NCBI GenBank assembly: GCA_963807175.1
Contig: CAWEAC010000005.1
Location: 43,130-107,129 of the forward strand
Source: an uncultured Alphaproteobacteria bacterium
GTDB lineage: Bacteria; Pseudomonadota; Alphaproteobacteria; Rhizobiales; Xanthobacteraceae
Length of the DNA: 64,000 nucleotides
Direction of reading: 5' to 3'
The first letter of the stretch is position 1, and every line of letters starts with the position of its first letter. The notes beneath the pieces are model-generated. The model searched no databases, was not told the DNA's origin, and saw nothing but the letters and a program-made list of their open reading frames with translations. Positions 27,740-46,925 of this stretch are shown here, in pieces. The position numbers and the translations under genes were made by a program.

Positions 27740-28546
27740 TTATCGATCGGAAGCTAATGCCGTCGCCATTTCAGCAATGATCGCCTTTGCAGCAGCGCGG
27801 GGATTAGGCGCAGCGTATATGGGCCGTCCAAGAACGAGATAATCGGCACCAGAGCGAATTGCTTCAAACGGGGTAGTGACGCGCTTCTGCTCGTCCGCTG
27901 TGCTCCCCGCAGGGCGAATACCGGGTGAAACAATCATAAGCTTGTTGTTTGTGTGTTTTCGTATTGATGCAGCTTCAAGAGCCGAAGCAATCACACCATC
28001 AACACCGGCATCAAGGGCCTTTTTGGCGCGCGCGAGGACTAGTTCCTCAACATCGCACTGAAATCCCATCTCTTTAATATCTTCCGCATCCATACTTGTG
28101 AGCACAGTCACACAAAGAATCTTCAAATCGGAATTTCCGCGCCCCTCAACAGCAGCTTTCAATATTCCAGCCACCCCATGGACGGTCAAAAAGCTGATTT
28201 TAAGTTCAGCAGCGCGCGCCACTGCATTCCGAATTGTTTCCTCAATATCGTAATACTTATAATCCAAAAATACGCGCTTACCCTGCTGAATAAGCTCCTT
28301 TGCAAATTCGTCACCGCCAGCCAACTGAAGGCCCAAGCCAACCTTAAAGAAAGAAACCTCGTCCCCTAATTCCGTTACAAGCTTGCGGGCGTCAGCAATT
28401 TCCCAATAATCCAGCGCGACGATCAGCTTTTCACGCGCTTGTTCGACATAATCAGAGCCGGGAAGCCGCCGAAGATCCCCGTCGAAGGCCGTCGCAAGAA
28501 CAAGGAGACGTGACCCTGAAGCTTCAGCCTTTTCTGCGATAATCTG
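27740..28546 (-). CDS. pyrF: Orotidine 5'-phosphate decarboxylase-like ORF with no in-frame start codon
   Basis: KLIVALD, catalytic [10 protein letters not shown] (DxKxxDIxxT), VTVLTS, PGIRP and [11 protein letters not shown] motifs. The frame is open to the TAG at 28547-28549 with no ATG/GTG/TTG before 28336. Confidence 0.8.
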
Positions 28547-28568
28547 CTATCGCCGCTGCACAACATCG

Positions 28569-28805
28569 TTAGCTTGACAGCCAGCGCGCGAGATCAGCCG
28601 ATTTCGGCAGGCCGCCCGCATGGACCACTTTGCCATCGATGACGATGCCCGGCGTCGAAGCGATGCCGTAGCCGGCGATGGCCGCATAGTCGGTCACCTT
28701 TTCAACCTTAACCGGGACACCGAGCTTGTCGGCTTCGGTCTGCACCATCTCGGCCGTCGTGACGCAACGCTTGCAGCCAGGGCCGAGGACTTTGACGTCT
28801 TTCAT
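28569..28805 (-). CDS. Small thioredoxin-family protein (MTH895-like)
   Basis: MKDVKVLGPGCKRC...TPGIVIDGKVVHAG, 78 aa, GGAG RBS. Typical partner of ArsP permeases. Confidence 0.85.
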   Translation of the reverse strand: MKDVKVLGPGCKRCVTTAEMVQTEADKLGVPVKVEKVTDYAAIAGYGIASTPGIVIDGKVVHAGGLPKSADLARWLSS

Positions 28806-28822
28806 GACTCTTCTCCGTTTTG

Positions 28823-29070
28823 TTACTGGAATAGCGCGTTGAATAGAAAGCCGACCGCGAGAATGCCGGTGCCGACGACACCAACGAACACCGCAATCAG
28901 GCGGATGGTGAGGACCTTGCGCAAGATGATCATCTCGGGGAGCGACAGCGCTATCACCGACATCATGAAGGCCAGGACGGCACCGAGCGCTGCGCCTTTC
29001 GCGAGTAGCGCCGTGACCACGGGGATGATGCCAGCGGCATTCGAATACATCGGAATGCCGATCAGCACCA
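28823..29070 (-). pseudogene. 3' fragment of an ArsP/DUF318-type permease
   Basis: Only the C-terminal GIPMYSNAAG...LSLPEMIILRKVL segment is present. Homology stops at ~29070. Confidence 0.75.
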
Positions 29071-29071
29071 T

Positions 29072-29530
29072 GCCTGCATCGACCACCGGGCACCCGATTT
29101 TACCGCCCGTCTTGCCGCAGCATGCCCGAAAGGTATCGACGTCTATTTTGAGAATGTCGGCGGCGCGGTATTCGAGGCCGTTTTCCCACTGCTCAGTCCG
29201 TTCGCCCGCATTCCGGTGTGTGGGCTGATCTCCATGTACAATGCCACGTCGCTGTCTCCCGGCCCCATCCTCCTACCGCACATGATGCGGACGATCTTGA
29301 CCAAGCGGTTGATGTTCCGCGGGTTTATCGTCTCCGACTTTTTCGGGCGCTACGGGGATTTCATGCGCGATGTCTCTGCTTGGGTCGCCGAGGGACGGAT
29401 CAAGTATCGCGAAGACGTGGTTGAAGGGCCCAAGAACGCGCCGCGGGCCCTCATCGGCCTCTTGCGTGGGGAGAATTTCGGCAAACTTTTGGTGCGCGTT
29501 GTGGCTCATAATGAAACGCACCAACATTAA
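29072..29530 (+). pseudogene. 3' fragment of an NADP-dependent oxidoreductase (CurA/PTGR-like)
   Basis: In frame from 29072: ACIDHRAPDF...CPKGIDVYFENVGG...RIPVCGLIS...GENFGKLLVRV. The N-terminal half is missing. Confidence 0.8.
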
Positions 29531-29650
29531 GCCAATTTAGTGCCGCCTAACTGGCCTTTAGGCTAGTGCCTGGGCAAGATGAAAAGCCGAATGACTAGGC
29601 CGCTCAAATGCGACCTATAAAATCTCGCTAAAAAACTCGGAGCAACTGCA

Positions 29651-30229
29651 ATGAGCAACGCAGAACCGGACCCGCAGGCCGCCCGATTATCTAACTTGCA
29701 GGGCAAGGTGTCGCCTAAGTTGCCACATGCAAGTTTTTGGATCAGAGAACTTCCTTTCAGCCTGGTGTTGATCCTGACGATACTCGGCGTTGCCTATACG
29801 ACTGTCTCAAAACAACCGATTATCGTTTATTGGGAACTTCTTGCGCCGGTGATCGGGCTTGTCTGTGTCGGTGCTGGATGGCCGAACGCCAACGATAAAA
29901 ACGCGCGATTGCTGTTGATATGTACCCAGGCACTGCACTGGGTCGCATTCCTACTTGTGATGAATTTGATGTTGTTGCCGAGCGTTCAAAGGATCCTCAA
30001 CGCCAGCGCGACCGGACTTTCCATTCTCACGTTGTTGGCGCTCGGCACCTTTACCGCTGGTGTGCATGTCCTTTCCTGGCAAGTCTGCCTTCTCGGGCTC
30101 ATCATGGCGCTCTGCGTTCCGGCAGCTGCGTGGATCGAGGCATCGGCTCTGATTGTCGTATTAATTGCAGCAGCGGTGCTGGCAATTGGCATAGTGTTCT
30201 GGTGGTACTGGCACAGAACAGCCATGTAG
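29651..30229 (+). CDS. Hypothetical multi-pass membrane protein
   Basis: 192 aa with about 6 hydrophobic segments. GGAG RBS upstream. Confidence 0.65.
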   Translation: MSNAEPDPQAARLSNLQGKVSPKLPHASFWIRELPFSLVLILTILGVAYTTVSKQPIIVYWELLAPVIGLVCVGAGWPNANDKNARLLLICTQALHWVAFLLVMNLMLLPSVQRILNASATGLSILTLLALGTFTAGVHVLSWQVCLLGLIMALCVPAAAWIEASALIVVLIAAAVLAIGIVFWWYWHRTAM

Positions 30230-30302
30230 GTCGCACCTGCTCTACCACTTGCTCGGTCCGAATGTGTTCATTCTCGAAGTTCGCCACGCACGAGGGATAT
30301 GG

Positions 30303-30325
30303 TGCAACCAGACCGTTATGAGCGG
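30303..30325 (-). other. 23-nt fragment of tRNA-Ile(CAU)/Met anticodon-variable region, att-like scar
   Basis: The minus strand reads CCGCTCATAACGGTCTGGTTGCA, matching the alphaproteobacterial tRNA(CAU) sequence as I recall it. No full cloverleaf is present. Confidence 0.55.
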
Positions 30326-30647
30326 TACGCCCTCCCCGGAAAAGCCGATAAAATCTGACGATTAACGTCACGTTCGATCACGGTTGACGACGCTTGTTCT
30401 CGTTTGGTTGCGCTGTATCGTTGGTCAATTGTTGGTCAACGATAACCCCACACGAACTATAGCAGTGCAATAATGATGCGCTGACGTTAGGCGATTCCTT
30501 CGGCTAATCAATGCGGATACGGTTTTCGGTACACACAGTGCAACTGGGGACGCTATGAGCCGCTGAGGTCCAGATCAATAGAGCAAGCCGCGCGCGGTTG
30601 GCTCAAATGCGAAGCTGATCACAAAGGGCACGTAAAAAGCCTACGGG

Positions 30648-31559
30648 CTAGAGTGCCTCAATATATTCCACCATTCGCCGCCGCTGGTGGGCATCGGGCA
30701 AGGGACCGCGCATGGCACCAAGGTTATCCGTCATATGAGCGGGGTTGCTAGTGCCGGGGATAACCGCTGTCACCCTTGGGTCACCCAGCAGATATTTGAG
30801 AAAAAATTGAGCCCAGCTTGCGGCGAACTCGGAAGCCCAATCCGGGAGCATTTTGCCGCGCACAGCCCTGAATAAACGGCCGCGGCCGAAGGGCAACGCC
30901 GTGAGCACGCCGGACTTGTTGTCTTGGGCGAGGGGCAGGATGCGCTTCTCGGCTTCGCGGTCTTCAATAGAATAATCGATTTGCACGAAATCTGGCTTTT
31001 GGCTTGTCAGAACGGCTTCGACCGCCGGGAACGCGCCTTGGAAGGTCGATGTAATGCCGATGTAGCGGCACACGCCTTGCGCTTTCCACTCCTTGAAGGC
31101 AGACAGCGATTGCTGTGGATCGCTGACGTTGTGGAGCTGGAGCAGGTCGAGCTTTTCAGTCCGCAATCGGCTTAGCGATTGCTTTAGCTCGGCCGCATCA
31201 GGCGATTTAAGCTTTGTTGCGATAAACAGCTTATTGCGTAGCCCAGCAGGTGCGATCACATCGCCCAGGACGCGTTCAGCATCGCCATAGGTCGACGCCG
31301 TATCGATTAGCTTGCCGCCATTGCCAACAAGCGATTGTATGACCGCGCTTGCCTTTTGCAGGGTGGCCTTATCGGCGCTGTCAAAGACCTGGGCCGTGCC
31401 GAGACCGACCACCGGCAAATACTCGCCACTCGAGGGGATCGCGCGGGTAATAAGCGGTGAGGATGGTTGCGCGAATGCCCGCCTATACGTGGTCGCTCCT
31501 TGCGCCACCAACACCGCCGCCGGCAATATCGCGAATTGGCGTCGCGTCAACACAGTCAT
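30648..31559 (-). CDS. Aldo/keto reductase with twin-arginine signal peptide
   Basis: N-terminal TRRQF, h-region and AFA cleavage site. AKR motifs GLGT, IDTASTYG, FIATK, LDLLQLHN, IGITS and IPGTS. Confidence 0.88.
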   Translation of the reverse strand: MTVLTRRQFAILPAAVLVAQGATTYRRAFAQPSSPLITRAIPSSGEYLPVVGLGTAQVFDSADKATLQKASAVIQSLVGNGGKLIDTASTYGDAERVLGDVIAPAGLRNKLFIATKLKSPDAAELKQSLSRLRTEKLDLLQLHNVSDPQQSLSAFKEWKAQGVCRYIGITSTFQGAFPAVEAVLTSQKPDFVQIDYSIEDREAEKRILPLAQDNKSGVLTALPFGRGRLFRAVRGKMLPDWASEFAASWAQFFLKYLLGDPRVTAVIPGTSNPAHMTDNLGAMRGPLPDAHQRRRMVEYIEAL

Positions 31560-31560
31560 C

Positions 31561-32886
31561 TCAATCTCCCGGTCCTGCGCGTGCTGCTGTCGGTTTGGCA
31601 CGCCGTTCTTGCGCCCGCCCCAAAACCAGGGACAAGATTAGCCAAGCGGCCGAAACCGGCGCGGCGATAAGAGCGATTGAGCCGAGTTTCAATCCTAAAA
31701 TCTGGAATATATCGAAGACCCAGCCAAACAGCGCATCAGAGCCGCGATATACGACCACGTCGATTAAGTTTTTGGCTTTGTACTTTTGTTCCCGATTGAG
31801 CACCGTATAGAACACTTGCCGCGCTGGATTGCTGAAGGCGAAGTGAAACCAGCGCTGAATCACCTGAAGAACGAGCACCACAGCCAGCGTCGGCATCAGA
31901 AATACGGCGAGAAAGCCGACCACATAAATCGCGGGCAGCGTGGCAGCAGCCACACCCGTCCCAAAGCGCTTGAGTAATCGCCCGGTGACGACAACCTGCG
32001 TTGCAAGAGTGAGCAGGTTCACCGCGAGGTCGATTGCCGCAAAAGTGCGGGTTTGCGCACCAGCACCGTGTACGTGGGCTGCAACCATATGGATCTGTTC
32101 GAAATAGAGCATCGTCGCACAGTACGACTGCAAGGCAATCCAGACTGCGATGCCCAACAGATAGGGTGAACGAATGAGCTCGGGTAGCGCGGCGAAGGCG
32201 CTGCCACCAAGGCGCTCCGGTTCGGCACGCGGTCCATCGTGGACCGCGGCCGCACGTTCGAGCCGCCAGACGCAGAATACGGCCAGTTCCAGTAAAATCA
32301 TGGCAACGATCAAGAGATTCATCGGGGCAAGCGATTCCAACAGCCCGATTGTGATGACAGGCCCGAGGAGCGCGCCTGCAGTACCACCGGCACCGATGAA
32401 GCCAAATAATCGCTTGCCCTGGTCCGCCGTAAATAGGTCGGCCATGAATGACCAGAAAACCGCAACAGCGAACAGGCTGAATACAGCTACCCACACGTAA
32501 AACGCACGCGCGACCATCGCAGTGTCAATTTTCAGCTTTAGCAACAACCAAAATAGCGCGAGGTTAACGACGAAAAAATGATAGACGATCGGGATGAAGC
32601 GCGCGCGCGGCAGTTTCTTGACCAACTCACCGTAGAGCGGTTGCGCAACGAGCAGCGTCACGAATGTCGCGGTGAACATCCACGGCAAGTTCCGCACGCC
32701 GCCCATGATACCCATCTGGTCGCGCAATGGACGAAGCACGTAATATCCCGCGAGCAGCGTGAAGAAATATGCAAACGACCATAAAGCGGCGATGCGCTCT
32801 TGCGGCGTGGCTGGCACTACGCGTGCCGTCCACCGTTGCAAAGATGCTACGGCACCGGCCCGGTTGTCGGTCGTCTCGATGGTCAT
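31561..32886 (-). CDS. ATP/ADP-translocase-like (NTT/AAA family) MFS carrier
   Basis: YYVLRPLRD, FWSFMADLFTADQGKRLFGFIGAGG, RQVFYTV and KYKAKNLIDVVVYRGSD motifs, with about 12 hydrophobic segments. Confidence 0.8.
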   Translation of the reverse strand: MTIETTDNRAGAVASLQRWTARVVPATPQERIAALWSFAYFFTLLAGYYVLRPLRDQMGIMGGVRNLPWMFTATFVTLLVAQPLYGELVKKLPRARFIPIVYHFFVVNLALFWLLLKLKIDTAMVARAFYVWVAVFSLFAVAVFWSFMADLFTADQGKRLFGFIGAGGTAGALLGPVITIGLLESLAPMNLLIVAMILLELAVFCVWRLERAAAVHDGPRAEPERLGGSAFAALPELIRSPYLLGIAVWIALQSYCATMLYFEQIHMVAAHVHGAGAQTRTFAAIDLAVNLLTLATQVVVTGRLLKRFGTGVAAATLPAIYVVGFLAVFLMPTLAVVLVLQVIQRWFHFAFSNPARQVFYTVLNREQKYKAKNLIDVVVYRGSDALFGWVFDIFQILGLKLGSIALIAAPVSAAWLILSLVLGRAQERRAKPTAARAGPGD

Positions 32887-33626
32887 TGCAACGAGAGCTT
32901 CTGCTTAAGCTCGGCTGCGCTCACCGGCTGGCCGTAACCGGGACCTCCGCGTTGAAACAGTTTCGCATCGACCAGCTTGCCGACTATGACTGGATCGAAA
33001 CCGGCGTCGCGGACGAGCCGGGCCGCCACCTGAACTGCCTCTGGATCGTCACCGGCAATGGGTACCGCCAATTTCGGATCAGGGCGGTTCGCCTCGCGGG
33101 CGAATGTCCTGTATGACATCGTATTGAAGGCGCGAACAAGCCGCGTCCCTGGCAGATACTTTTGCGAGGTCACGCCCACACCGTTGGCCTCGACTTCTTC
33201 GGCGACTGTCCCATCGCGTGCAGCGACTGCGTTACAGGTGTCGAGCACGATTTTGCCCTTGAGCGCGGCGGCGTAATCCCGACCGATTTGCGGTAGCGCA
33301 CTATACGGCACGGAGATCAATACGGCGTCACCGAATGCGATCGCTTGATCGACGGTGCCGGCCTGGGCCAGCGGCCCAAGGTTTGCCACCAAATCTTTTA
33401 GCTCCTCAGGACGGCGCGAGGAGAACAAGACCTTATGGCCATTCTTGACCCAAAGCCCTCCGATGGTACTGCCAATATGGCCAGCCCCAATGGTCCCGAT
33501 CGGGATCTTGCTGCCGCTATTGCTCTGAGCCCGTAAGCTTGCAGGCCATAGAGTTGCGCCCATGATCAAGGCACCTGTGGCAAGCACCTTGCGGCGATCG
33601 CGGTCAATGTCATCAAGTTTTGGCAT
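32883..33626 (-). CDS. NADPH-dependent F420-reductase-like Rossmann oxidoreductase with Tat-like signal
   Basis: DRRKVL, h-region and LRA cleavage site; GAGHIG, FSSRRP, LDTCNA and VRAFNT motifs. ATGA overlap with the carrier gene. Confidence 0.8.
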   Translation of the reverse strand: MPKLDDIDRDRRKVLATGALIMGATLWPASLRAQSNSGSKIPIGTIGAGHIGSTIGGLWVKNGHKVLFSSRRPEELKDLVANLGPLAQAGTVDQAIAFGDAVLISVPYSALPQIGRDYAAALKGKIVLDTCNAVAARDGTVAEEVEANGVGVTSQKYLPGTRLVRAFNTMSYRTFAREANRPDPKLAVPIAGDDPEAVQVAARLVRDAGFDPVIVGKLVDAKLFQRGGPGYGQPVSAAELKQKLSLQ

Positions 33627-33814
33627 GAGACGCTCCCGGCGTTCAGCTCGCAAAGCTACATCAAAATCCAGTGCAATTGTGATAGGGCATTGGATGTCGG
33701 CCATGCGCCATGGGCGGCTTCGGGGCAACGGCGCACTGAGCTGCTCCATCGTGGAAGCTTGGACAACTGTCATCTTTGCGGCCTTTTTAATTTTTTGACC
33801 ATACGGGGTGCGCG

Positions 33815-34069
33815 TGTCGATTGCTTCCCCGCTCATGCAGCCTTCCCCAAATGGCAAGAGGGTCGGCATCCGCATTGTCACTTTCGAGGCCTGCTCAGGC
33901 TTCACTCACGTTACGGCCCGCCGGATTGCTCAGCCGCCTAAAGCGGCCTTTGTCACAAGGCTCCAGCCCTGCCGGTTACCCGGCCGAGCCGCTCGTCAGC
34001 TACCAGATCAATCGACAACTCTCTGGGTGGAATCTTCCTCCACTAGTGATCCGCGCCTTCGGGGCGCAC
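33815..34069 (-). mobile_element. Group II intron 5' fragment (domain I only, no RT ORF)
   Basis: The minus strand starts GTGCGCCCCGAAGGCGCGGATC... at 34069 and continues as structured, intron-like sequence for ~255 nt. No domain V/VI or intron-encoded protein follows. Confidence 0.62.
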
Positions 34070-34107
34070 TGCCAATAGGCAAATCGCACGCTTGTTTTGA
34101 AATGAAA

Positions 34108-34131
34108 GAGGCCGCCAACCGAGGCGGCCTC
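34108..34131 (-). terminator. Rho-independent terminator of the lipocalin-like gene
   Basis: GAGGCCGCC-6nt-GGCGGCCTC, followed on the minus strand by TTTCATTT. Confidence 0.75.
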
Positions 34132-34148
34132 CGGAGTGAGTTAGCGTT

Positions 34149-34616
34149 TCATTTTGCTTTCTTCCACACGTTCACAGGCGTGATCGCTCCCTCCGGGGTC
34201 TGGACTTTGCTTGCAGTCGTCGTCATGGTGCCGTCTTTGAACGTGACGGTCTGCTCGCGTACAGCGCCTTCGAAGGCTGGTGAACTCGCTCCCTCAACTT
34301 TGGCCGTGAACTTTTTCCCGGCTTCATCAACCGTGTAAGTGCCGTACCAGGCAACCATAGGGGCCGCGGGAGTTCGCACGCTGTCGGTCTTAGACCGGTC
34401 TTTGCCAAGCACGAAGAACGATATCTGGCCGCCACGGTCAATAATGAGACTGCCCTTGGCCCACGGCACTACCTTTTTGCCGTCGGGCATAATTTCACTG
34501 CCCTCAACTAGCGTCCAGCCACCAACGATCTAACTCTTGAGACTTTTCGCCGATGCGATTTGTGACATTACGAGCAGCAGCAAGAAGCCAGACAAAATTC
34601 CAACTATGCGTCGCAT
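34149..34616 (-). pseudogene. Lipocalin-like domain secreted protein with a premature TAG
   Basis: AGGAGG RBS and signal peptide MRRIVGILSG..., then LKS*IVGGWTLV (TAG at 34530-34532) and AWYGTYTVDE. Confidence 0.75.
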
Positions 34617-34734
34617 GAGACCCTCCTAAGGTTCCATTGGGACAGGCTAACGTACCTTTTCAGCAAGGGAAATAACCGCGACATAGATTCGCCCCCGTGA
34701 TGCTAACTGTGCCGACGTTCTGCTTATTTTAACC

Positions 34735-34843
34735 GCTTAGGGTCATTCACGTCATAGCCGTCGTGGGCCAAAATTGACGTTTGTCGGTTGTTAGTCCAAT
34801 CGCGTCCTAAATGCTGCGTCGCGGAGAATGCAGCGTTGTGCCA
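34735..34843 (+). repeat. Island repeat-family unit, left part; continues at 36236-36295 after the IS110 element
   Basis: Modules GGGTCATTC / TGTCGGTTGTTAGTCCAATCGCGTCCTAAA / TTGTGCCA-AAAGCGGAC. Near-identical to 46860-46910. Confidence 0.65.
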
Positions 34844-34859
34844 TGTGTGGACGGCTCCG

Positions 34860-35119
34860 AGTTGGCAAGAGCTTTTTTCATGTTTGCAGGCTTGGTCGGT
34901 GCAGCCATGTGTTCGGCCTTTAAGTGCGGTTCACATGACCGCTGGCCATAATGCCCTCCGCGGATCAGGTCCCGGTCAAAAGCACGCATTCGACAATGCG
35001 TTGGCACAAGTGGGTTGTCCTGATCGCCGGATCGACCGGCTCTGCATTACGTGCTGTTCGCCCTTTCCAACCTTCACATCACGCCGGGTGTCCGGCGCGA
35101 TCTCGTTTACGCCGCAAAT
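34860..35119 (-). ncRNA. Putative bridge/seek RNA of the IS1111-type element
   Basis: Guide-like segments match the empty target and the circle junction, each pair split by a hairpin (see findings). RNA ends are not defined. Confidence 0.72.
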
Positions 35120-36151
35120 TTACGCCGCGAGTGCGACGGGTTCCTTATAACGCTCGCCTCTGGCCATCATGGCCCAGGCCATCCGGGCTAGCTTGTTGGC
35201 AAGCGCGATGGCCGCGACCTTGGTTGGCTTTCGAGCCAGCAATGCCGTGAGCCAGGGCCGATGCTTGGTGCCATGGATCTTGGCGTAGCGGATGACGGCG
35301 AGCGCGCCGGCCATGAACAGGCTGCGCAGATAGCGGTCACCCTGCTTACTGATGCTACCGAGCCTGTCCTTGCCCCCGCTTGAGTGCTGCTTCGGCACCA
35401 ACCCAATCCAGGCCGAGAAGTTGCGCCCTGATCGAAAGACCTTTGGGTCAGCGACGCAGGCAACCAGGGCCGTAGCCAGCATCGGACCGACACCGGGGAT
35501 CGCATCGAGCCGCATACTCGCCTCATTAGATCGATGCCAGGCCATGATCTGTCGGTCGAACTCCAGAATCTGCTCCTTGAGCCTACGCAGTTGAGCCCCA
35601 AGTGCTGCGAGGCACACCCGTGCAACCTTGGGCAACCGGTCGTCATTTGAATCGGCGACGACATCGAGAAGTTCCTCGACACCCTTGCGCCCGACTGGTG
35701 CGACGATCCCGAACTCGGCCAAATGGGCCCGGATCACATTGATCACCGCGGTCTGCTGGCGGATGAACAGATGGCGCGTGCGATGGAGCATCAGACAGCT
35801 CTGCTGTTCTGGGGTCTTGGTTGGCACGAACCGCATATTGGGCCTGGTGACCGCCTCACAGATCGCCTCCGCGTCAGTGGCATCGTTCTTCTGCCGTTTG
35901 ACGTAAGGCTTCACGTAGGCCGGCGGCATCAGGCGCACCGTATGACCGAGCGCCTTGAGCTCACGCGACCAATGGTGCGACGAGGCGCAAGCTTCGATCC
36001 CGACCAGGCATGACGGCAGCTTCTGGAAGAACGCCAGGACATAGCGGCGTTTCAACTGACGCCGGATGATTACTCTATCTTCTGCGTCGATGCCGTGAAC
36101 CTGAAACACCGACTTGGCGATGTCGAGACCGATTGTCGTAACCGTTTGCAT
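35120..36151 (-). CDS. IS110 family transposase/recombinase
   Basis: DEDD RuvC-like motifs IGLDIAK, GIEAC and KNDATDAEAI; Tnp20 domain IPGVG, GLVPKQHSSGGK and ISKQGDRYLR. Confidence 0.95.
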   Translation of the reverse strand: MQTVTTIGLDIAKSVFQVHGIDAEDRVIIRRQLKRRYVLAFFQKLPSCLVGIEACASSHHWSRELKALGHTVRLMPPAYVKPYVKRQKNDATDAEAICEAVTRPNMRFVPTKTPEQQSCLMLHRTRHLFIRQQTAVINVIRAHLAEFGIVAPVGRKGVEELLDVVADSNDDRLPKVARVCLAALGAQLRRLKEQILEFDRQIMAWHRSNEASMRLDAIPGVGPMLATALVACVADPKVFRSGRNFSAWIGLVPKQHSSGGKDRLGSISKQGDRYLRSLFMAGALAVIRYAKIHGTKHRPWLTALLARKPTKVAAIALANKLARMAWAMMARGERYKEPVALAA

Positions 36152-36520
36152 GTTTGGCTCCTCCGGATTGTGGGGGCCTTAACAGCGCCCACATTCATGG
36201 CACTCACGTGCCGGTGGAGGAGCCGTCCACAGCATCAAAAGCGGACTCATACACCGCAGCAAACAATATCGCTATTCAATCACCTCGTCGCGTCCTTGCT
36301 GCGGCGACAATCAGATTTTCTTTCTTAATTCCGAACGGCAGAAATTGAATAGCCTATCATCCCCAACTTCCCGCCTCCCGATAATCGGGTCTGATCGGAT
36401 GAAAGCGTCAGCCGCTCTATGGCATTGTCACAATAAATATTTGGAACACGGTGCGATGAGGCACAAGCCAACGTAAAGCCCTACGTCAAACGCATCGCTC
36501 CCTAACGGATCTTTCGCGCG

Positions 36521-37738
36521 TCAGTGCGCGACTGACATGATCTCGCCGCGCCGCTCCGGACTGAAGCGGATTACGATGACGATCGCAACTGCGACGATCC
36601 CCGCCACCAGCGCGAGCGCGAAGCTGTAATTGCCGCCTGAAGACTCGGCGATCTTTGCCTGGAACGGGCCGTTGTAAGAGGCAAGGAAATTACCGACTTG
36701 ATAGACGAAGCCGGGCAGCGTCGCGCGTACCGGGCCCGGCGAGAGTTCATTGAGGTGGGCAGGAATGACTCCCCAAGCGCCCTGCACGCTGATTTGCATG
36801 ATGAAGGCACCGATGGCGAGCATGAAGGGCGTCGACGAATAGGCCCACAGTGGCAACGCAGGTAGCGCGATGAGTGAGGCGATGGTGATGGCGTTAACGC
36901 GGCCGATCTTCTCCGACACAAAGCCAAAGAAAAGGCCGCCGACGATCGCGCCCAAATTGGCGACGATGGTAATCCAGCTGACGGTAGTGTGATCAAACTC
37001 ATGCTGCTTTTGTAGGAAGGTCGGATAGAGGTCCTGAGTACCGTGACTGAACAGGTTGAAGCACATCATCAGCACCACGGCATAGAGCGCGATACGCCAA
37101 TTGGCGCGTAACGTGTCGATCAGTTTCGGTTTGGCGGCCTTCTGCGCTTCTGCGAATGGCGGCGACTCGGGTACATGCGAACGGATGAACAACACGACGA
37201 GTGCGGGAATAACACTGAGCAGGAACATCGCGCGCCAGCCGATGTTAAAACCGCCAATGCTGTGCTGATAGAGCAGCCCATATGCGATCGAAGCGAGCAG
37301 ATAGCCAGTGGGATAGCCGCATTGCAGAAGGCCGGAAACGAAGCCACGCGCCTGCGGCGGAATCGATTCCATTGCAAGCGAACTACCTAGGCCCCATTCG
37401 CCGCCCATTGCGATGCCGAACAAGGCGCGCAACAGCAGGAATATCCATAGACTTGGCGCGAAGGCCGCGAGAGCGCCGACCACGGAGTAAGAGATTATGT
37501 CGAGCATCAGGATTGGCTTGCGGCCGAATCGGTCGCCGAGACGACCGAAGATGAAGGCGCCGATGAAGCGCATGGCGAGCGTAAGGAACAACGCGTAAGC
37601 TACTTGCGAAATCTCAACGCCGAACTCCTTCGCGATGTCTCCCAGTAAGAAGACGAGAAGAAAAAAGTCGAAGGCGTCAAGCGTCCAGCCGAGGAAAGCG
37701 GCGAGAACGGTCTTCTTCTGCGCGCTCGTCAAAGTCAT
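36521..37738 (-). CDS. MFS transporter, SHS family (NanT/Jen1-like carboxylate transporter)
   Basis: FLGWTLDAFDF, GDRFGRK, GIAMGGEWG, SHGTQDLYPTFL and QGAWGVIPAHLNE motifs. Confidence 0.88.
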   Translation of the reverse strand: MTLTSAQKKTVLAAFLGWTLDAFDFFLLVFLLGDIAKEFGVEISQVAYALFLTLAMRFIGAFIFGRLGDRFGRKPILMLDIISYSVVGALAAFAPSLWIFLLLRALFGIAMGGEWGLGSSLAMESIPPQARGFVSGLLQCGYPTGYLLASIAYGLLYQHSIGGFNIGWRAMFLLSVIPALVVLFIRSHVPESPPFAEAQKAAKPKLIDTLRANWRIALYAVVLMMCFNLFSHGTQDLYPTFLQKQHEFDHTTVSWITIVANLGAIVGGLFFGFVSEKIGRVNAITIASLIALPALPLWAYSSTPFMLAIGAFIMQISVQGAWGVIPAHLNELSPGPVRATLPGFVYQVGNFLASYNGPFQAKIAESSGGNYSFALALVAGIVAVAIVIVIRFSPERRGEIMSVAH

Positions 37739-37974
37739 GGGCCCCCCAAATCGACATTCCCCAGATAGCCGCCGATGTCAGCTCCATGTTGCCTCTGGTG
37801 TGGCGCCCTGGCAAGCATCCCTTACATTAAGACAATTCCGATGAACGCGCCCCGCCTCATGCTAACCCCAAGCTCCGAAGGCGCATCCCATAGGTTTAGA
37901 CGAGTGCTTTGATAGGGGCGGAAACCGACATCAAAACCATTGCCGAAGTGCACAGCCGATGTCCGCTAAGTGCC

Positions 37975-39555
37975 GATTTTGTTGCAGAAGTGATTTGAAG
38001 GCTTTGGCGAACAGTGATTCTTTCTTCTGACGACATTTTGCGTCGGAGGCGGGCGATGATGGGACGCCAGAACAACGACCAGGGTCCTTTATTCTATGAG
38101 TTCCGCCTCGATGAGGCGGTTCCTGATGATCATCTGGTGCGCAAGATCGACGCCGTTCTCGATCTATCATGGGTACACGCAGAACTCGCGCCGCACTATC
38201 CAACGCTCGGCCGGCCCTCGGTTGATCCGGTGCTGATGATCCGGATGCTGATCGTCGGTTATGTTTTTGGCCTGCGTTCCGAGCGGTTGCTGTGTCGCGA
38301 GGTTCAGGTGAACCTCGCCTATCGATGGTTTTGCAAGCTCGGCATCGAGCACAAGATCCCTGATCATTCGGCGTTCTCGCGTGCACGCAATGAGCGCTTC
38401 CGCGACAGCGGCATCTTCCGCCAGGTATTCGAGCGTGTGGTCGAGGCGTGTATCGCAGCCGATCTCGTTGGCGGAGAAGGGTTTGCCGTGGATGCCAGCC
38501 TGATTGCGGCCGATGCCAACAAGCAGCGCTCGATCCCGGGCGCAGAATGGCAAAAGACACGCGATCCCAAGACGGCGAGCCGGGCCATGAAGGAGTATCT
38601 GGCAACCCTCGATGATGCGGCCTTTGGTGCGGCGAGCGATGTCACACCGAAGTTCGTCTCGCCGTCCGATCCGGCCGCGCAATGGACCGGCGCGATGCGA
38701 GGACCGGCGTTCTTTGCCTATGCCGACAACTATCTGATCGACGTGAAGTGCGGCGTCATCATGGGTGTCGAAGCCACGCGCGCTATCCGCCAGGCCGAAG
38801 TCGGCGCGGGGAAGACCATGGTTGAGCGCACCGAGGAGCGCTTCGATATCAAGCCCAAGTGGCTCGCGGCTGATACGGCCTATGGTTCAGGCCCGAACCT
38901 CAACTGGCTCGTCAAAGACAAGGACATTGCGCCGCACATCCCGGTTATCGACAAATCGAAGCGCGAGGATGGAACCTTCAGCCGGGAAGACTTCAGGTTT
39001 GACAAAGAGCGCAACGTCTATGTCTGCCCAGCGGGCAAGATCCTCACCACGACTGGCACGGTGATCGATGATGGCGAGACGCTTCGTTATCTCGCGAGCA
39101 CATCCGACTGTCGGGGCTGCCCGCTCAAGGTGCGATGCTGTCCAAAGGCATCGTTCCGCAGGATTCCGCGCAGCATCTATGAAGAGGCGCGCGACGTTGC
39201 CCGCGCACTGGCCAAGACCGAAGCCTTCGAACAATCACGCCGTGATCGCAAACGCATCGAGATGCTGTTCGCCCATCTCAAGCGCATCCTGAAGCTTGGT
39301 CGCCTTAGGCTTCGTGGCCCGCGCGGCGCACAGGATGAGTTCACGCTTGCGGCTATCGCACAGAACCTACGCCGGCTCGCCAAACTGGTCGTTAGGCCAC
39401 CACCGATGGCCGCCGCTTGTGCCGCGTAAGCGTTGCGGTTGTCAGTGCTACTGACTCAAGGGCCCCATCGCCAGATGAAGCGGGCGCAGTAGAAGGGTTC
39501 AATACATCGAGGCAATTGCCGCGCTCTTCGAATCGCCGACTTCTGCAACAAAATC
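37975..39555 (+). mobile_element. IS1182-family element
   Basis: Perfect 17-bp terminal inverted repeats GATTTTGTTGCAGAAGT (37975-37991, 39539-39555). 4-bp TGCC target duplication at 37971-37974 and 39556-39559. Confidence 0.9.
38056..39429 (+). CDS. IS1182 family transposase
   Basis: GRPSVDP, PDHSAFSRAR, VDASLIAA, AADTAYG and RIEMLFAHLK motifs. Confidence 0.9.
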   Translation: MMGRQNNDQGPLFYEFRLDEAVPDDHLVRKIDAVLDLSWVHAELAPHYPTLGRPSVDPVLMIRMLIVGYVFGLRSERLLCREVQVNLAYRWFCKLGIEHKIPDHSAFSRARNERFRDSGIFRQVFERVVEACIAADLVGGEGFAVDASLIAADANKQRSIPGAEWQKTRDPKTASRAMKEYLATLDDAAFGAASDVTPKFVSPSDPAAQWTGAMRGPAFFAYADNYLIDVKCGVIMGVEATRAIRQAEVGAGKTMVERTEERFDIKPKWLAADTAYGSGPNLNWLVKDKDIAPHIPVIDKSKREDGTFSREDFRFDKERNVYVCPAGKILTTTGTVIDDGETLRYLASTSDCRGCPLKVRCCPKASFRRIPRSIYEEARDVARALAKTEAFEQSRRDRKRIEMLFAHLKRILKLGRLRLRGPRGAQDEFTLAAIAQNLRRLAKLVVRPPPMAAACAA

Positions 39556-39849
39556 TGCCAGGAACGGATATTCCCGATCGCTCTCAACTCAACGAAAACC
39601 TCGGCGGTTGCCCTGCACCGGCGAACCGGCAACCGCAACTGGATTTCTTGCGTTCGGGGAGTGAACTCCACGATGCAGCGGCAGATTTTTCCTATCGGAA
39701 ATAGTAACCCGACGATCCGGAGGCCCATTTCAAATTCGTTAGAGAAATCATCACAGTAATTTGGCCTGCTTCTTGCTGGCCTGTAATTGTCAAAATGCCG
39801 TCTAGCGTGCTTCGCCACGCTCATTGAAGGATGTTGGGAGGGTGTTGCA

Positions 39850-40095
39850 ATGAAAATCCATATGCGGCCGCCGCTTCCACCTCTGCTGCCCGCACCTCTG
39901 CCAAAACCACCGCCGACTGCCTTCCAGTTGGATATGCAGACTGAGGAATTGACCAAAGTCGCGCAGCAGCAAAAAGATCGCCTGAAGAAGCTGTACGGAG
40001 GGCGGAAAAATCCCGGGGACTTAGATGAGGACACCGATTCCGAAACGCAGGAACGCGATCATCGCTCGAACCGGAACCTCGATTTCCTCGCTTGA
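39850..40095 (+). CDS. Small hypothetical protein with a Pro-rich N-terminus
   Basis: 81 aa. GGGAGG RBS upstream. Ends in NLDFLA. Confidence 0.5.
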   Translation: MKIHMRPPLPPLLPAPLPKPPPTAFQLDMQTEELTKVAQQQKDRLKKLYGGRKNPGDLDEDTDSETQERDHRSNRNLDFLA

Positions 40096-40152
40096 GCTAG
40101 CTGTGGCGAGCAAAACTAAATATCCATTAAATCTCATGTGGCAGCGGGGCCA

Positions 40153-40545
40153 ATGACCCACCAGAAAGCCGTGATGGAGAAATTTGCAGCGCAATTTGAA
40201 GCTCTGCCTGAAATTTGGCTTCAAAATGAATTGCTCGAACAAACCAGAGACTACCTAACATGGGGTCGGCGCTTTGAGCGGCTGGAACTCGATCGGCTGA
40301 ATAAAGTGTGGGCCGAAGCATTTCGACAGTTCGTAAGACGGAAGACGGGGCCGCACCTCCGCGACATGGATGACGCAGGAGCGGAGCTTCGTCTCCGCGG
40401 CGAGGAATTCCCTACTGACCTGGTTACATCGGAAGTGGAGCAACTCAGGGCCGCTATTCAGCGCGTTGGTCCCATTTTCCCATCGGCAGAATTCGAACGA
40501 AAGATCGATGAGTTTTTCAGGGATTTGAACAAACCAAAGCACTAA
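40153..40545 (+). CDS. Hypothetical protein
   Basis: 130 aa with protein-like composition and no recognisable motif. Confidence 0.55.
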   Translation: MTHQKAVMEKFAAQFEALPEIWLQNELLEQTRDYLTWGRRFERLELDRLNKVWAEAFRQFVRRKTGPHLRDMDDAGAELRLRGEEFPTDLVTSEVEQLRAAIQRVGPIFPSAEFERKIDEFFRDLNKPKH

Positions 40546-40605
40546 TGCGGGCAGCGCATTTCTCGATACCAATGCAATGTCGCAGATCGGTCATTCGCTG
40601 CGTAT

Positions 40606-40710
40606 TTGTTCGGGCGCTCCCGCCCGAGCTGCGAATGGTCGGACGACGACTACGACGTGTTCGACGGCGATCGGCACATCGGCCGCATCATTTGGACGCA
40701 TGCAGCTGCA
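40606..40710 (+). pseudogene. Fragment of a small hypothetical gene (SRPSCEWSDDDYDVFDGDRHIGRI)
   Basis: Resembles a small accessory-region protein type, then degenerates where it meets the 3' end of the opposite-strand gene. Confidence 0.35.
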
Positions 40711-40725
40711 TTTCGCTCAGCCCCG

Positions 40726-41754
40726 TTACGCCCCCTTGATCGATTGCAACAATTGATCGATCTCACGGATCATTTTCGCCAATTTGTTCTCACGCTCGCT
40801 GACATTGTCGGTGATATGCGAGGCTGCGCCCTTGCGGGATGTGTTATATCGGTACTCGTGGTCAGCTCGGAGCGGGCGACGCGCGCCGTAACCGCTTGTG
40901 GCCGGTACAAGTGAGGTGTACAAGCCGCCTATGGACTGATCCTGCTCATTGGCGAATTCAGGCTGCAGCCCCTCGTCGCGCGGCTCATGCGCTTGTCGGT
41001 CGTCGATCCATTTGGATTGGGAGTGATCGATGATTATTCGCCGGCCACGCATAGTGGAGAATTTTATCATAGAGGTATACAAAAATCCAGCCGCGGTCAG
41101 CCCAACCGCGATGACAAGAAATATTTTCGCTAGCGTTACCGCAGGTGGGAAAGAGTCCGCGGGTTCATCGCTCGGAACTAGGTTCGGCTTCTGCGCCTCG
41201 ACCATCGCAACCGCTGGCGGATCGGGCCATACTAAAGCAGCCGATGGCCCGGTTGTGGGCGCCTTAGCACCGGTCTGGGATGACGCGCTTGCTTGCGGAG
41301 CGGGCGCCTCTTGAGTAGACGTGGCCACACTTTCTTCCTGAATGCGTTGCTGGACAGATTTGTCCGTTGGCGCACTCCCTGTAGGCGCCGCCTGCGTGTT
41401 GGGCGGCGGCAAGGACGGAGCGCTATTGCCAGCACTATTCGATATGGGAGCGCCTGCTGATGCAGTCGCAGACGTTTCGACTGAACCGGCGGATTTTGTC
41501 GGTGCCATTTCCGGTGAAGCATATGCAACAGTGTGTAGCGTTAGTTGGCCTGGCGGACGCAAAAACCAGCACTTACGCCGTTTCTGTCGATCCGTTTTGT
41601 AATACCAGTGGCTTCCCTTCGGCCCGGCGGAATTCGGGGCGGTTATACAATCATCCGCATGCGCGGAAGTTTCGGGCGCTGCGATGCCAACGCCCCATAC
41701 GAGAAACGGAGCCGCAAGTACGATCAATCGAATTGAGATGATTTGACCTGACAT
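40726..41754 (-). CDS. Hypothetical exported/membrane-anchored protein
   Basis: Signal peptide, C-x13-HWYY-x8-CW module, Pro/Ala/Ser linker and one later hydrophobic helix. Confidence 0.6.
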   Translation of the reverse strand: MSGQIISIRLIVLAAPFLVWGVGIAAPETSAHADDCITAPNSAGPKGSHWYYKTDRQKRRKCWFLRPPGQLTLHTVAYASPEMAPTKSAGSVETSATASAGAPISNSAGNSAPSLPPPNTQAAPTGSAPTDKSVQQRIQEESVATSTQEAPAPQASASSQTGAKAPTTGPSAALVWPDPPAVAMVEAQKPNLVPSDEPADSFPPAVTLAKIFLVIAVGLTAAGFLYTSMIKFSTMRGRRIIIDHSQSKWIDDRQAHEPRDEGLQPEFANEQDQSIGGLYTSLVPATSGYGARRPLRADHEYRYNTSRKGAASHITDNVSERENKLAKMIREIDQLLQSIKGA

Positions 41755-41844
41755 GTCGCATCCACCACTGAACCCGCAAAATATCCATGCAATTTTCGAT
41801 TGAAATGCGTCGCAATTGTGGGTTCAGAGGGACCTTTCAAGGTT

Positions 41845-41880
41845 TGGGTCCTAAATGACGCGATGTGCCATAAGCGGCCA
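41845..41880 (+). repeat. Island repeat-family unit (shortened)
   Basis: TTGGGTCCTAAATGACGCGATGTGCCATAAGCGGCC. Confidence 0.5.
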
Positions 41881-41892
41881 CTGCGCGCCTAG

Positions 41893-42351
41893 TTAGTAGC
41901 AGCGAACAATATTTACGGATTGCATTTTGCCGCCACCCCGAGGAACCGTTACGGTCTGCGAGCGGCAGTCCGACGCATATCTGACCACAGGCGGATATCG
42001 ATGCACCGCATCCCAGGGGACATCATATGTGTAGGTGACATGCTGCGATATTGATCGCGCAACATCCACATTCGGCTCGAAATCCGAGGGCTGCAGTTTT
42101 TGATTGATGCCGTAGAAGCCCCCTGCTGTCGCCCAGAGCGCCCAGTCTGCATTGCGTTTGCCGTGATCCCGTCGCGATGAGAAATTTGCGTGAACTCTCG
42201 GTCGCATGACTGATGGGCTGGAGGCCGAATGCGTCGAAGCAGATTTTCCGCCAGGCGCTGCTCCCGACCTGCCGAATGACTCGTTTGGTGCAAGGGTGAG
42301 GGCTACGCTAAGAGATGCGATAAAGGCCGTCGCATACATTCTATGCATCAT
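41893..42351 (-). CDS. Hypothetical secreted protein
   Basis: Signal peptide and C-terminal YTYDVPWD...C...VNIVRCY. Confidence 0.55.
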   Translation of the reverse strand: MMHRMYATAFIASLSVALTLAPNESFGRSGAAPGGKSASTHSASSPSVMRPRVHANFSSRRDHGKRNADWALWATAGGFYGINQKLQPSDFEPNVDVARSISQHVTYTYDVPWDAVHRYPPVVRYASDCRSQTVTVPRGGGKMQSVNIVRCY

Positions 42352-42599
42352 AGGACTCGCCATTTTTACGCTACCAAGCATACATTCCAACGCATTCTAG
42401 CTCAGGCCCTTTGTATCCACCAGATCCATCCGCTCGGATTTCAAAACCATAGCGAAAGCGGCCGAGCCGCGCCCTTTGCGTGCTGAAGCCACGCCCGTAT
42501 TACAGCCGCCCTCAAGCCAGACGGTGGCATCCTACCGGCTAAAACTAGACCGAGGAAAGGGACTGAAAGCGGCTTTGGGCAGATGTTCGTTGGTACAGC

Positions 42600-42725
42600 C
42601 AATGTCGCAGTTGGGTCATTCGCTACTGATCCATTCCACGCCAGTATCAAAAAATGGTCGCTGTGCCTCCGATAGCGACAAAATCCGGGCAATGCCCCGA
42701 ACGACGCTAAGCGCCAAAAGCTGAC
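42600..42725 (+). repeat. Island repeat-family unit (three hairpin modules)
   Basis: ATGTCGCAGTTGGGTCATTCGC / GTCGCTGTGCCTCCGATAGCGAC / GACGCTAAGCGCCAAAAGCTGAC. Confidence 0.6.
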
Positions 42726-43608: not shown

Positions 43609-43659
43609 GTATTACCAGAACATACGGGTGCCGCAGCGGTTGCCATCTTTACAATTTTA

Positions 43660-46794: not shown

Positions 46795-46910
46795 CGATGT
46801 CCGAGTCGGGTCAATCGCTGCGGAGCAATTCAGCCCCAGTGCCGCCCTTTGTCCGTTATTGTCTAATCGCGTCCTAAATGGTGCGGCGCGGGGAACGCAG
46901 TCATGTGCCA
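46795..46910 (+). repeat. Island repeat-family unit
   Basis: ATGTCCGAGTCGGGTCAATCGCTGCGGAGCAATTCAGCC...TCGCGTCCTAAATGGTGCG...TGTGCCA. Confidence 0.65.
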
Positions 46911-46925
46911 TGTATGGACGGCGCC
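46911..46925. mobile_element. Orphan IS1111-type end remnant
   Basis: GTGCCA then TGTATGGACGGCGCC, compared with GTGCCA then TGTGTGGACGGCTCC at 34838-34858. The rest of the element is absent. Confidence 0.55.

What the first reader, a model, noticed from the sequence alone, without database searches (positions are those of the whole stretch)
34842..36237. IS1111-type element whose 3' non-coding end shows a complete, readable bridge/seekRNA
Seen: the reconstructed empty site is TTGTGC-CA-AAAGCGGAC. The non-coding end has CAAAAGC (34977-34983), then the hairpin CGCATT-cgac-AATGCG (34985-35000), then TTGGCACAA (35001-35009, the reverse complement of TTGTGCCAA), all closed by GATCAGG/CCTGATC (34963-34969/35019-35025). 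The predicted circle junction is GCAT-CA-TGTGT. A second loop has CATGTGT (34906-34912), a GCGGT/ACCGC hairpin and CATAATGC (34947-34954, 7/8 match to CATGATGC with one G-U wobble). Established: IS110 bridge RNA (Durrant et al. 2024) and seekRNA (Siddiquee et al. 2024) use such paired guides. This is a natural RNA-guided recombinase programmed against the island repeat.
Basis: partly seen in the sequence, partly recalled or inferred. Interest (0 to 1): 0.75.

Follow-up and report, generated by a model that had tools for sequence, protein, structure and literature searches.

The report
IS1111-type insertion sequence with bridge RNA
This is an intact IS1111-type insertion sequence whose non-coding tail encodes a readable guide (bridge/seek) RNA matching its own insertion site and its own joined ends. 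It is a clear example of a mechanism described in 2024, not a new one.

Summary
The element (34842-36237) carries a 343-aa IS110-family DEDD transposase on the minus strand, perfect 13-bp subterminal inverted repeats, and an 86-nt left and 278-nt right non-coding end.

On the minus strand the right end folds into a conserved scaffold. The segments UUGUGCCAA and GCUUUUG sit on either side of a hairpin. They match opposite strands of the reconstructed target TTGTGC-CA-AAAGCGGAC and overlap at the core.

That target occurs uninterrupted in 25 soil metagenome contigs, in the loop of a REP-like hairpin. In 66 related elements the two guide segments are the hypervariable columns of a near-invariant scaffold. 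They track each element's own flanks better than all 5000 permutations. Distant relatives from other genera show the same pattern with unrelated target sequences.

The second (donor) loop matches the predicted circle junction. Comparative support for it is real but thinner.

RNA evidence is weak: environmental metatranscriptome contigs from relatives only. No circle junction was observed.

Verdict: observation confirmed, interpretation supported. This is a new member of a known kind (IS1111 bridge/seekRNA; Durrant 2024, Siddiquee 2024). Interest is modest.

The parts
34836..34843 (.). Flank TTGTGC plus core CA at the right-end (RE) junction. This is the left half of the target as read on the + strand.
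   Evidence: The uninterrupted target is found in metagenomes.
34844..35119 (-). Right non-coding end of the IS (about 276-278 nt) that encodes the bridge/seekRNA.
34846..34858 (.). Right subterminal inverted repeat TGTGGACGGCTCC.
   Evidence: I5, 13/13 complementary.
34863..34868 (-). TTGCCA, a -35-like hexamer. Once the ends are joined it lies 17 nt upstream of CATGAT, giving a candidate circle-junction promoter.
   Evidence: The motif CTTGCCAAC is invariant in relatives. No promoter activity was tested.
34894..34898 (-). 3' strand (CGACC) of the outer stem that closes the whole RNA. It pairs with GGUCG at 35033-35037.
   Evidence: RNAalifold consensus. Paired in 99% of cells but invariant, so there is no covariation test.
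34904..34912 (-). Donor-loop 3' guide ACACAUG, identical to the RE end plus core, followed by GC. The GC matches the first two bases of the target's right flank, as a handshake guide would.
   Evidence: The extension matches the right flank at 129/132 positions, against a permutation maximum of 123.
34915..34946 (-). Donor-loop distal arm: GGCC/GGCC stem plus GCGGU/ACCGC hairpin.
   Evidence: The U-A pair is replaced by C-G in 14 sequences.
34947..34954 (-). Donor-loop 5' guide GCAUUAUG. It is complementary to the circle junction CA-TG-ATGC with one U·G wobble.
   Evidence: The Croceicoccus relative L110 has GCAUCAUG, a perfect Watson-Crick match.
34957..35031 (-). Target-binding arm. Stems: UCCG/CGGA, GAUCAGG/CCUGAUC and CCC/GGG. 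About 75 nt, close to the size of published short seekRNAs (82-96 nt).
   Evidence: Compensatory GAUCGGG/CCCGAUC in L048 and L068.
34976..34983 (-). Target-loop 3' guide GCUUUUG, identical to the left flank plus core in IS orientation, so it pairs with the bottom strand. It is followed by A, which matches the first base of the left end (handshake-like).
34985..35000 (-). Central hairpin CGCAUU-GUCG-AAUGCG that separates the two target guides.
35001..35009 (-). Target-loop 5' guide UUGUGCCAA. It pairs with T-TG-GCACAA on the top strand in IS orientation (core plus right flank), 9/9.
35033..35037 (-). 5' strand (GGUCG) of the outer stem.
35082..35098 (-). Conserved hairpin GCGCCGG-ACAC-CCGGCG just after the tnp stop codon. 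Role unknown.
   Evidence: Compensatory GCGUCGA/UCGACG in L005 and L010.
35120..36151 (-). Transposase (recombinase), 343 aa. Candidate catalytic residues D10, E53, D90, D93 and S258-G259.
36152..36235 (-). Left non-coding end (84 nt after the core), including the left subterminal inverted repeat at 36219-36231 and the 4-nt extension GCAT.
36236..36246 (.). Core CA at the left-end (LE) junction plus flank AAAGCGGAC. This is the right half of the target as read on the + strand.
41863..41879 (+). Unoccupied near-cognate site ATGTGC-CA-TAAGCGGCC in another copy of the repeat (3 mismatches).
46807..46925 (+). Second copy of the flank repeat (about 80% identical to 34740-34843). It ends at ...TGTGC-CA and is followed by a solo right terminus of a related IS (TGTATGGACGGCGCC).
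   Evidence: (D3).

Best explanation
The feature is an intact IS1111-group (IS110-family) insertion sequence, 1394 bp plus a 2-bp core, inserted in the loop region of a REP-like repeat.

Shown by sequence and comparison:
- The minus strand encodes a DEDD/Ser recombinase.
- Downstream of it lies a structured non-coding module of about 150 nt.
- The first arm of that module is a target-binding loop. Its 5' guide UUGUGCCAA pairs with one strand of the target (core plus one flank). Its 3' guide GCUUUUG pairs with the other strand (other flank plus core). The two overlap at the core dinucleotide.
- The second part is a donor-binding loop. Its guides GCAUUAUG and ACACAUG are complementary to the two strands of the joined ends (GCAT-CA-TGTGT).
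- Each 3' guide carries 1-2 extra bases that match the partner DNA, like the handshake guides of IS621.

Inferred from published work on relatives (PMC11187229, PMC11208160, PMC11208158):
- The element excises as a circle.
- Joining the ends creates a promoter (TTGCCA, 17 nt, CATGAT) that transcribes tnp and the downstream RNA.
- The RNA is trimmed to long (about 150 nt) and short (about 80 nt) forms and binds the recombinase.
- The complex brings the circle junction and a matching REP copy together and recombines them at the CA/TG core without a target duplication.
For: Protein family: Pfam PF01548 plus PF02371, NCBIfam NF033542 at 351 bits, weak matches to the solved IS621 and ISCro4 recombinases, and a GL-P----SG motif with DEDD candidates.

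Architecture: 13/13 subterminal inverted repeats, 278-nt versus 86-nt non-coding ends.

Empty site: found uninterrupted 25 times in metagenomes.

Fold: the MFE and RNAalifold structures place both target guides in an internal loop closed by GAUCAGG/CCUGAUC. 99.7% of cells are paired in 63 sequences, and slid controls give 20-45%.

Guide-target covariation in close relatives:
- The guides are the hypervariable columns of a scaffold that is about 83% identical.
- Matches to each element's own flanks are 318/462 and 276/396. Permutation means are 253 and 218, and no permutation of 5000 reaches the observed values.
- Explicit switches: GUGCCA with TG-GCAC, GGGCCA with TG-GCCC, CCCCCA with GGGG, GGGUCR with ACCC.

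Guide-target match in distant relatives: elements in Rhizobium, Polymorphobacter, Sphingobium, Croceicoccus and Novosphingobium match their own, unrelated flanks over 6-8 nt. In L109 and L112 the 3' guide is perfect.

Strand order: the top-strand match lies 5' of the bottom-strand match and the two overlap, as reported for IS1111 seekRNAs.

Donor loop:
- The 3' guide follows a core T-to-C change in about 8 loci.
- It follows an RE-1 A-to-G change in L048.
- Its 2-nt extension follows the target's right flank.
- The 5' guide has C instead of the wobble U in L110.

RNA: metatranscriptome contigs from relatives cover the non-coding end most consistently. X33 covers only that region. X26 has depth 27.7 there against 0-5 over tnp.
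Against: - No RNA from this exact element was seen. The environmental RNA evidence consists of undirected contigs from relatives at 90% identity or more, and DNA runs show a similar depth profile.
- No internal sigma-70-type promoter or terminator was found.
- No circle junction is present in any fetched sequence.
- Rfam 15 gave no match.
- Secondary-structure covariation is thin: only 3 of 32 pairs show compensatory changes, because the family is close.
- Many relatives have 1-3 mismatches between the 3' guide and the left flank.
- The donor-loop 5' guide is invariant. It does not follow a left-end +4 C-to-A change in L109 and L112, nor the CG core variant.
- Published work shows that a short seekRNA carrying only the target matches can suffice for an IS1111 member. 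The donor loop may therefore not be essential.
- The relatives are not independent samples.
Confidence: 0.85

Rival explanations
1. The element is a seekRNA-only system. The target-binding arm is real, but the second loop is not a donor guide. Instead the recombinase protein recognises the ends through the 13-bp subterminal inverted repeats, and GCAUUAUG and ACACAUG are scaffold sequence or leftovers.
For: Siddiquee et al. found that the 82-nt short seekRNA of ISEc11, which holds only the target matches, supported movement even better than the long form. They also suggested that end recognition may differ in IS1111. Here the donor-loop 5' guide is invariant and is not compensated when left-end +4 changes in L109 and L112. 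The closing stem of this loop never varies.
Against: The 3' segment changes together with the core (TG to CG) and with RE-1 (L048). Its 2-nt extension tracks the target flank. L110 carries C at the wobble position, restoring a Watson-Crick pair. The two segments have the same strand polarity and overlap at the core, as in the target loop. Durrant et al. predict donor loops in IS1111 elements.
Confidence: 0.12
2. The matches are coincidental or act at the DNA level. The conserved right end would then be a 3' UTR, a terminator or a protein-binding DNA site, and its resemblance to the flanks would not reflect RNA guidance.
For: In the window alone the matches are short (7-9 nt). A core-spanning 9-mer appears in 3.3% of shuffles. 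No RNA was observed directly. Rfam gave no match.
Against: Guide and flank covary in 66 loci beyond every one of 5000 permutations, and again in distant genera with unrelated targets. The variable columns sit exactly in the loops of a conserved fold. The family has experimental precedent.
Confidence: 0.03

Closest known systems
IS1111-group elements with seekRNA: ISEc11, ISPa11, ISKpn4, ISPst6 (Siddiquee et al. 2024, PMC11187229)
   Same: Transposase of 330-350 aa with DEDD and S/T-G motifs. Subterminal inverted repeats. Long non-coding region downstream of tnp. Two target matches on opposite strands, overlapping, with the top-strand match 5' of the bottom-strand match. Module sizes of about 75-85 nt and about 150 nt fit the short and long seekRNAs. 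The target is a REP-like hairpin, as for ISPa11.
   Different: Different host group (soil Bradyrhizobium-like Alphaproteobacteria) and different target sequence. Nothing here was tested experimentally. I could not compare sequence directly with those elements or with ISfinder, so it may already carry an ISfinder name.
IS621 bridge RNA (Durrant et al. 2024, PMC11208160; Hiraizumi et al. 2024, PMC11208158)
   Same: A two-loop RNA with four guides that all include a 2-nt core. [quoted passage not shown] The 1-2 nt after each 3' guide match the non-cognate DNA, as handshake guides do. REP targeting.
   Different: The RNA and tnp are encoded in the right end, on the opposite strand relative to the recombination site. 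The subterminal inverted repeats are long. The core is CA/TG rather than CT. In the consensus fold the target arm is nested inside the stem that closes the donor loop (a three-way junction) instead of forming two serial stem-loops. The protein match to IS621 is weak (E about 1e-8, C-terminal half only).
ISPpu9 / MITEPpu9 of Pseudomonas putida (PMC12288879)
   Same: IS110-family element that inserts in REP sequences and recombines at a 2-nt core. One relative (L060) carries tandem copies of the RNA-plus-end module, which recalls separately mobile modules.
   Different: ISPpu9 lacks a junction promoter and carries extra small RNAs (Asr9, Ssr9). No such features were seen here.

Membership tests
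IS110 family, IS1111 group (insertion sequences) | N-terminal DEDD (RuvC-like) domain and C-terminal PF02371 domain with a conserved S/T-G | tested here: met
   PF01548 at 3.9e-13 and PF02371 at 7.9e-25. NF033542 at 351 bits against a cutoff of 140. D10, E53, D90, D93 and GLVPKQHSSG at 250-259.
IS110 family, IS1111 group (insertion sequences) | Subterminal inverted repeats of 7-17 bp with short terminal extensions | tested here: met
   13/13 repeat at 34846-34858 and 36219-36231, with extensions of 2 and 4 nt before the core.
IS110 family, IS1111 group (insertion sequences) | The longer non-coding region lies downstream of tnp | tested here: met
   278 nt downstream against 86 nt upstream.
IS110 family, IS1111 group (insertion sequences) | Site-specific insertion with no duplication other than the shared core dinucleotide | tested here: met
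   The flanks joined with a single CA occur uninterrupted in 25 metagenome contigs. Relatives sit at the same position of REP-like hairpins.
IS110 family, IS1111 group (insertion sequences) | Circular intermediate with a promoter assembled at the junction | not testable with these tools
   Sequence only: TTGCCA, 17 nt, CATGAT forms when the ends are joined. No junction sequence is present in the fetched loci.
Bridge RNA / seekRNA | Target loop with two guides complementary to opposite strands, overlapping at the core, in the IS1111 order | tested here: met
   UUGUGCCAA matches 9/9 and GCUUUUG matches 7/7 on either side of a hairpin. The order is as in PMC11187229.
Bridge RNA / seekRNA | Guides covary with the target across related elements | tested here: met
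   z of about 9.6 and 10, with 0 of 5000 permutations reaching the observed values. Distant relatives agree.
Bridge RNA / seekRNA | Donor loop complementary to both strands of the joined ends, covarying with them | tested here: inconclusive
   The sequence match is present (7/7, and 8/8 counting one U·G). The 3' guide follows changes at the core and at RE-1, and L110 has C at the wobble position. The 5' guide does not follow changes at left-end +4 or the CG core.
Bridge RNA / seekRNA | Conserved secondary structure supported by compensatory changes | tested here: inconclusive
   99.7% of cells are paired and slid controls give 20-45%, but only 3 of 32 pairs show changes on both sides.
Bridge RNA / seekRNA | The RNA is transcribed from the non-coding end and bound by the recombinase | not testable with these tools
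   Only undirected metatranscriptome contigs of relatives are available. They favour the non-coding end. DNA runs show a similar depth profile.

The most novel reading that the evidence does not exclude
This soil-alphaproteobacterial IS1111 lineage is a natural series of near-identical recombinase and scaffold pairs. Only the loop guides have been rewritten, to follow variants of one REP hairpin loop (GCAC, GCCC, GGGG, ACCC). The lineage also shows handshake-type bases and a nested three-way-junction arrangement of the target and donor loops, which have not been characterised for IS1111 elements. If these features are real, the lineage would give a compact, GC-rich-adapted bridge recombinase and a natural map of which scaffold positions are programmable.
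Probability: 0.3. Interest if true: 0.45.

Novelty: new member of a known kind. Interest (0 to 1): 0.3.

Why it matters
It confirms that a bridge/seekRNA can be read directly from raw sequence of an unannotated soil bacterium. It also supplies a well-populated comparative set for studying guide programmability and mismatch tolerance in the less-studied IS1111 branch: more than 60 close relatives with different guides plus distant relatives. It does not change what is known about the mechanism. NCBI's own family model already calls this protein an 'IS110 family RNA-guided transposase'.

Tried and rejected
- Rfam 15 scan of 34000-37000 at E up to 10: no match. No curated family covers this RNA, or the library lacks one.
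- Sigma-70 promoter and intrinsic terminator scan inside the element: nothing relevant.
- Single-sequence MFE fold: it pairs the hairpin loop CAUGUG with the donor 3' guide CACAUG. I rejected this pairing because relatives with a different loop (for example CCGGUGU in L002) keep the GCGGY/RCCGC hairpin.
- 'RNA-Seq' soil runs X9 and X22: their depth profile is matched by DNA runs X8 and X1, so they are uninformative about expression.
- Search for a circle junction in all fetched loci: none.
- Search for a partner left end for the solo terminus at 46913-46925: none in the window.
- Coding potential of the + strand ORFs overlapping the non-coding end (34788-35150 and others): rejected, because relatives carry 1-, 2- and 6-nt indels there.
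- A fuzzy-regex extraction timed out. I replaced it with alignment columns.
- I could not compare with ISfinder entries or with the ISEc11/ISPa11 sequences.

Full report
**What is there.** The region 34842-36237 was read directly. The only long ORF with family support is on the minus strand (35120-36151, 343 aa). It carries the two domains of IS110-family recombinases, PF01548 and PF02371. It scores 351 bits against NCBIfam NF033542, 'IS110 family RNA-guided transposase'. Its C-terminal half matches the solved IS621 and ISCro4 recombinases weakly. It has the GL-P----SG motif and DEDD candidates D10, E53, D90 and D93.

Perfect 13-bp inverted repeats lie 2 and 4 nt inside the ends. The non-coding end downstream of tnp is 278 nt and the upstream one is 86 nt. 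These are the features that define the IS1111 group (PMC11187229; PMC11208160).

**The insertion site.** CA occurs at both junctions. Joining the flanks with one CA gives TTGTGC-CA-AAAGCGGAC. The 20-mer across this joint occurs uninterrupted in 25 soil metagenome contigs in at least six contexts. There it lies in the loop of a hairpin, GTCCGC-GTTGTGCCAAAA-GCGGAC, and similarity to the window's flank runs on for about 55 nt. The boundaries and the empty site are therefore confirmed, and the target is a REP-like repeat.

The window holds related copies of this repeat:
- 46807-46910 is about 80% identical to the flank. It ends at the same ...TGTGC-CA and is followed by a solo terminus of a related IS.
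- 41863-41879 is an empty site with three mismatches.

**The RNA, read on the minus strand.** The single-sequence fold and the consensus fold of 63 sequences agree on the following layout:
- an outer stem GGUCG/CGACC
- a target arm closed by UCCG/CGGA, GAUCAGG/CCUGAUC and CCC/GGG
- an internal loop in that arm holding UUGUGCCAA, a hairpin, then GCUUUUG
- a distal arm (GGCC/GGCC and GCGGU/ACCGC) flanked by GCAUUAUG and ACACAUG

In IS orientation the target is GCTTT-TG-GCACAA. The 5' guide pairs with the top strand (T-TG-GCACAA, 9/9). The 3' guide is identical to GCTTT-TG, so it pairs with the bottom strand (7/7). The two overlap at the core. This is the order reported for IS1111 seekRNAs. Read on the window's + strand, it is the IS621 geometry. 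The arm of about 75 nt and the whole module of about 150 nt fit the published short (82-96 nt) and long (148-172 nt) seekRNAs.

**Chance.** In 20000 dinucleotide-preserving shuffles of the 278-nt end, core-spanning 7-mers on both strands, in the right order and within 60 nt, occurred in 0.43%. That is suggestive but not decisive for the window alone.

**Comparative test, close relatives.** Eighty loci with recombinases 83-92% identical were fetched from soil Alphaproteobacteria, Bradyrhizobium and Pseudolabrys. In the alignment the scaffold is nearly invariant, and the variable columns are the two target guides.
- The guides follow each element's own flanks: GUGCCA with TG-GCAC, GGGCCA with TG-GCCC, CCCCCA with GGGG, and GGGUCR with ACCC.
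- The 3' guide equals the left flank plus core exactly in L002, L009, L011, L023, L032, L040, L046, L053, L056 and L064.
- Over 66 loci, matches number 318/462 (5' guide) and 276/396 (3' guide). Permutation means are 253 and 218, and none of 5000 permutations reaches the observed values.
- Many loci still have 1-3 mismatches, and the loci are not independent.
- Uninterrupted REP copies in the fetched DNA carry the corresponding loop variants (TTTTGGCACAAA, TTTCGGGGGTAAA, TTCTGACCCAAA, AATTGGCCCATA). The lineage has evidently been re-aimed repeatedly at variants of one hairpin.

**Comparative test, distant relatives.** Elements only 66-69% identical in DNA, on plasmids of Rhizobium, Polymorphobacter, Sphingobium, Croceicoccus and Novosphingobium, keep the scaffold. 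Their 5' guides match their own, unrelated right flanks over 6-8 nt. In L109 and L112 the 3' guides are perfect (GAAATTG and CGAGAATG).

**Donor loop.** The predicted circle junction is CCACACA-TG-ATGCTG in IS orientation, which is GCAT-CA-TGTGT on the + strand. ACACAUG is identical to the right end plus core. GCAUUAUG is complementary to CA-TG-ATGC with one U·G pair.

Support:
- The 3' guide becomes ACACACG where the core is CG, and ACACGUG where RE-1 is G (L048).
- L110 has GCAUCAUG, a full Watson-Crick match.

Against:
- The 5' guide is otherwise invariant and is not compensated where left-end +4 is A (L109, L112).
- The closing stems never vary.
- A short seekRNA without this part sufficed for ISEc11.

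I rate the donor-loop reading as probable, not established.

**Handshake-like bases.** After the core, the donor 3' guide continues with GC in the window. In relatives it continues with GG, AC or GCC. These follow the first bases of the target's right flank, not the element (129/132 matches, permutation maximum 123, few independent events). The target 3' guide continues with A, or AU in 14 loci, which matches the first bases of the left end. This mirrors the handshake guides of IS621.

**Expression.**
- No sigma-70-type promoter or terminator lies inside the element.
- Joining the ends creates TTGCCA, 17 nt, CATGAT. The -35 motif is invariant in all relatives. This fits the junction promoter described for the family.
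- No run holds this exact element; the best share of sampled words is 0.57.
- In metatranscriptomes, contigs of relatives cover the non-coding end most consistently. X33 covers only 34837-35154. X26 has depth 27.7 there against 0-5 over tnp.
- These contigs have no direction, and DNA runs show a similar profile. I count this as weak support only.
- No circle junction was found.

**Verdict.** The element is an ordinary, apparently intact member of a class whose RNA-guided mechanism was published in 2024. That work predicted bridge RNAs in 93% of IS1111 elements. It is a new member of a known kind, and its value is mainly as a clean comparative data set.

Noticed in passing
window 46909-46925 (context 46807-48130): A solo right terminus of a related IS1111-type element (CA-TGTATGGACGGCGCC) sits at the same position of a second copy of the flank repeat. 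It is followed abruptly by unrelated, lower-GC DNA (0.51) that includes a RadC-like C-terminal fragment ORF (47947-48123). No partner left end exists in the window.
   Followed up: partly
window 41863-41879: An unoccupied near-cognate target, ATGTGC-CA-TAAGCGGCC, lies in a third, more diverged copy of the repeat. It has one mismatch to the 3' guide and two mismatches at the outer positions of the 5' guide.
   Followed up: partly
window 28000-48000: GC content is 0.54-0.60 across this stretch and above 0.62 from 48 kb onward. All repeat copies and IS ends lie inside the lower-GC stretch, which is consistent with an acquired island.
   Followed up: no
L060:2975-3925: Three tandem copies of a unit made of the last ~47 nt of tnp, the whole bridge-RNA module and the right end. 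They are joined where the right end (CCACACA-TG-GC) meets an internal site (GCCATGA-TG-GCTAGG). This may be a real amplification of the RNA module (compare MITEPpu9/ssr9) or an assembly artefact.
   Followed up: partly
L037, L038, L039, L047, L049, L108, L110 (junction cores): In several relatives the core differs between the two junctions: TG at the left end and CG at the right end. Within one RNA the 5' guides specify T and the 3' guides specify C at the first core position. Empty REP copies exist with both TTTCGGGGG and TTTTGGGGG. The first core base seems to be tolerated as Y. I did not work out what this says about the order or position of strand exchange.
   Followed up: partly
window 35082-35098 and 35040-35075 (minus strand): A hairpin just after the tnp stop codon (GCGCCGG-ACAC-CCGGCG) shows compensatory changes in relatives. 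A block GGUUGGAAAGGGCGAACAG..UAAUGCAG is conserved even in distant genera. Their roles are unknown; a 5' part of the RNA, a processing site or a weak promoter are all possible.
   Followed up: no
L081-L105 and window 36250-36300: The conserved right flank of the REP-like target (…CATGCACCGCAGCAAA…CTATTCGATCACCTCGTCGG…) recurs in many soil contigs. It looks like part of a longer repeat unit of Bradyrhizobium-like genomes.
   Followed up: no
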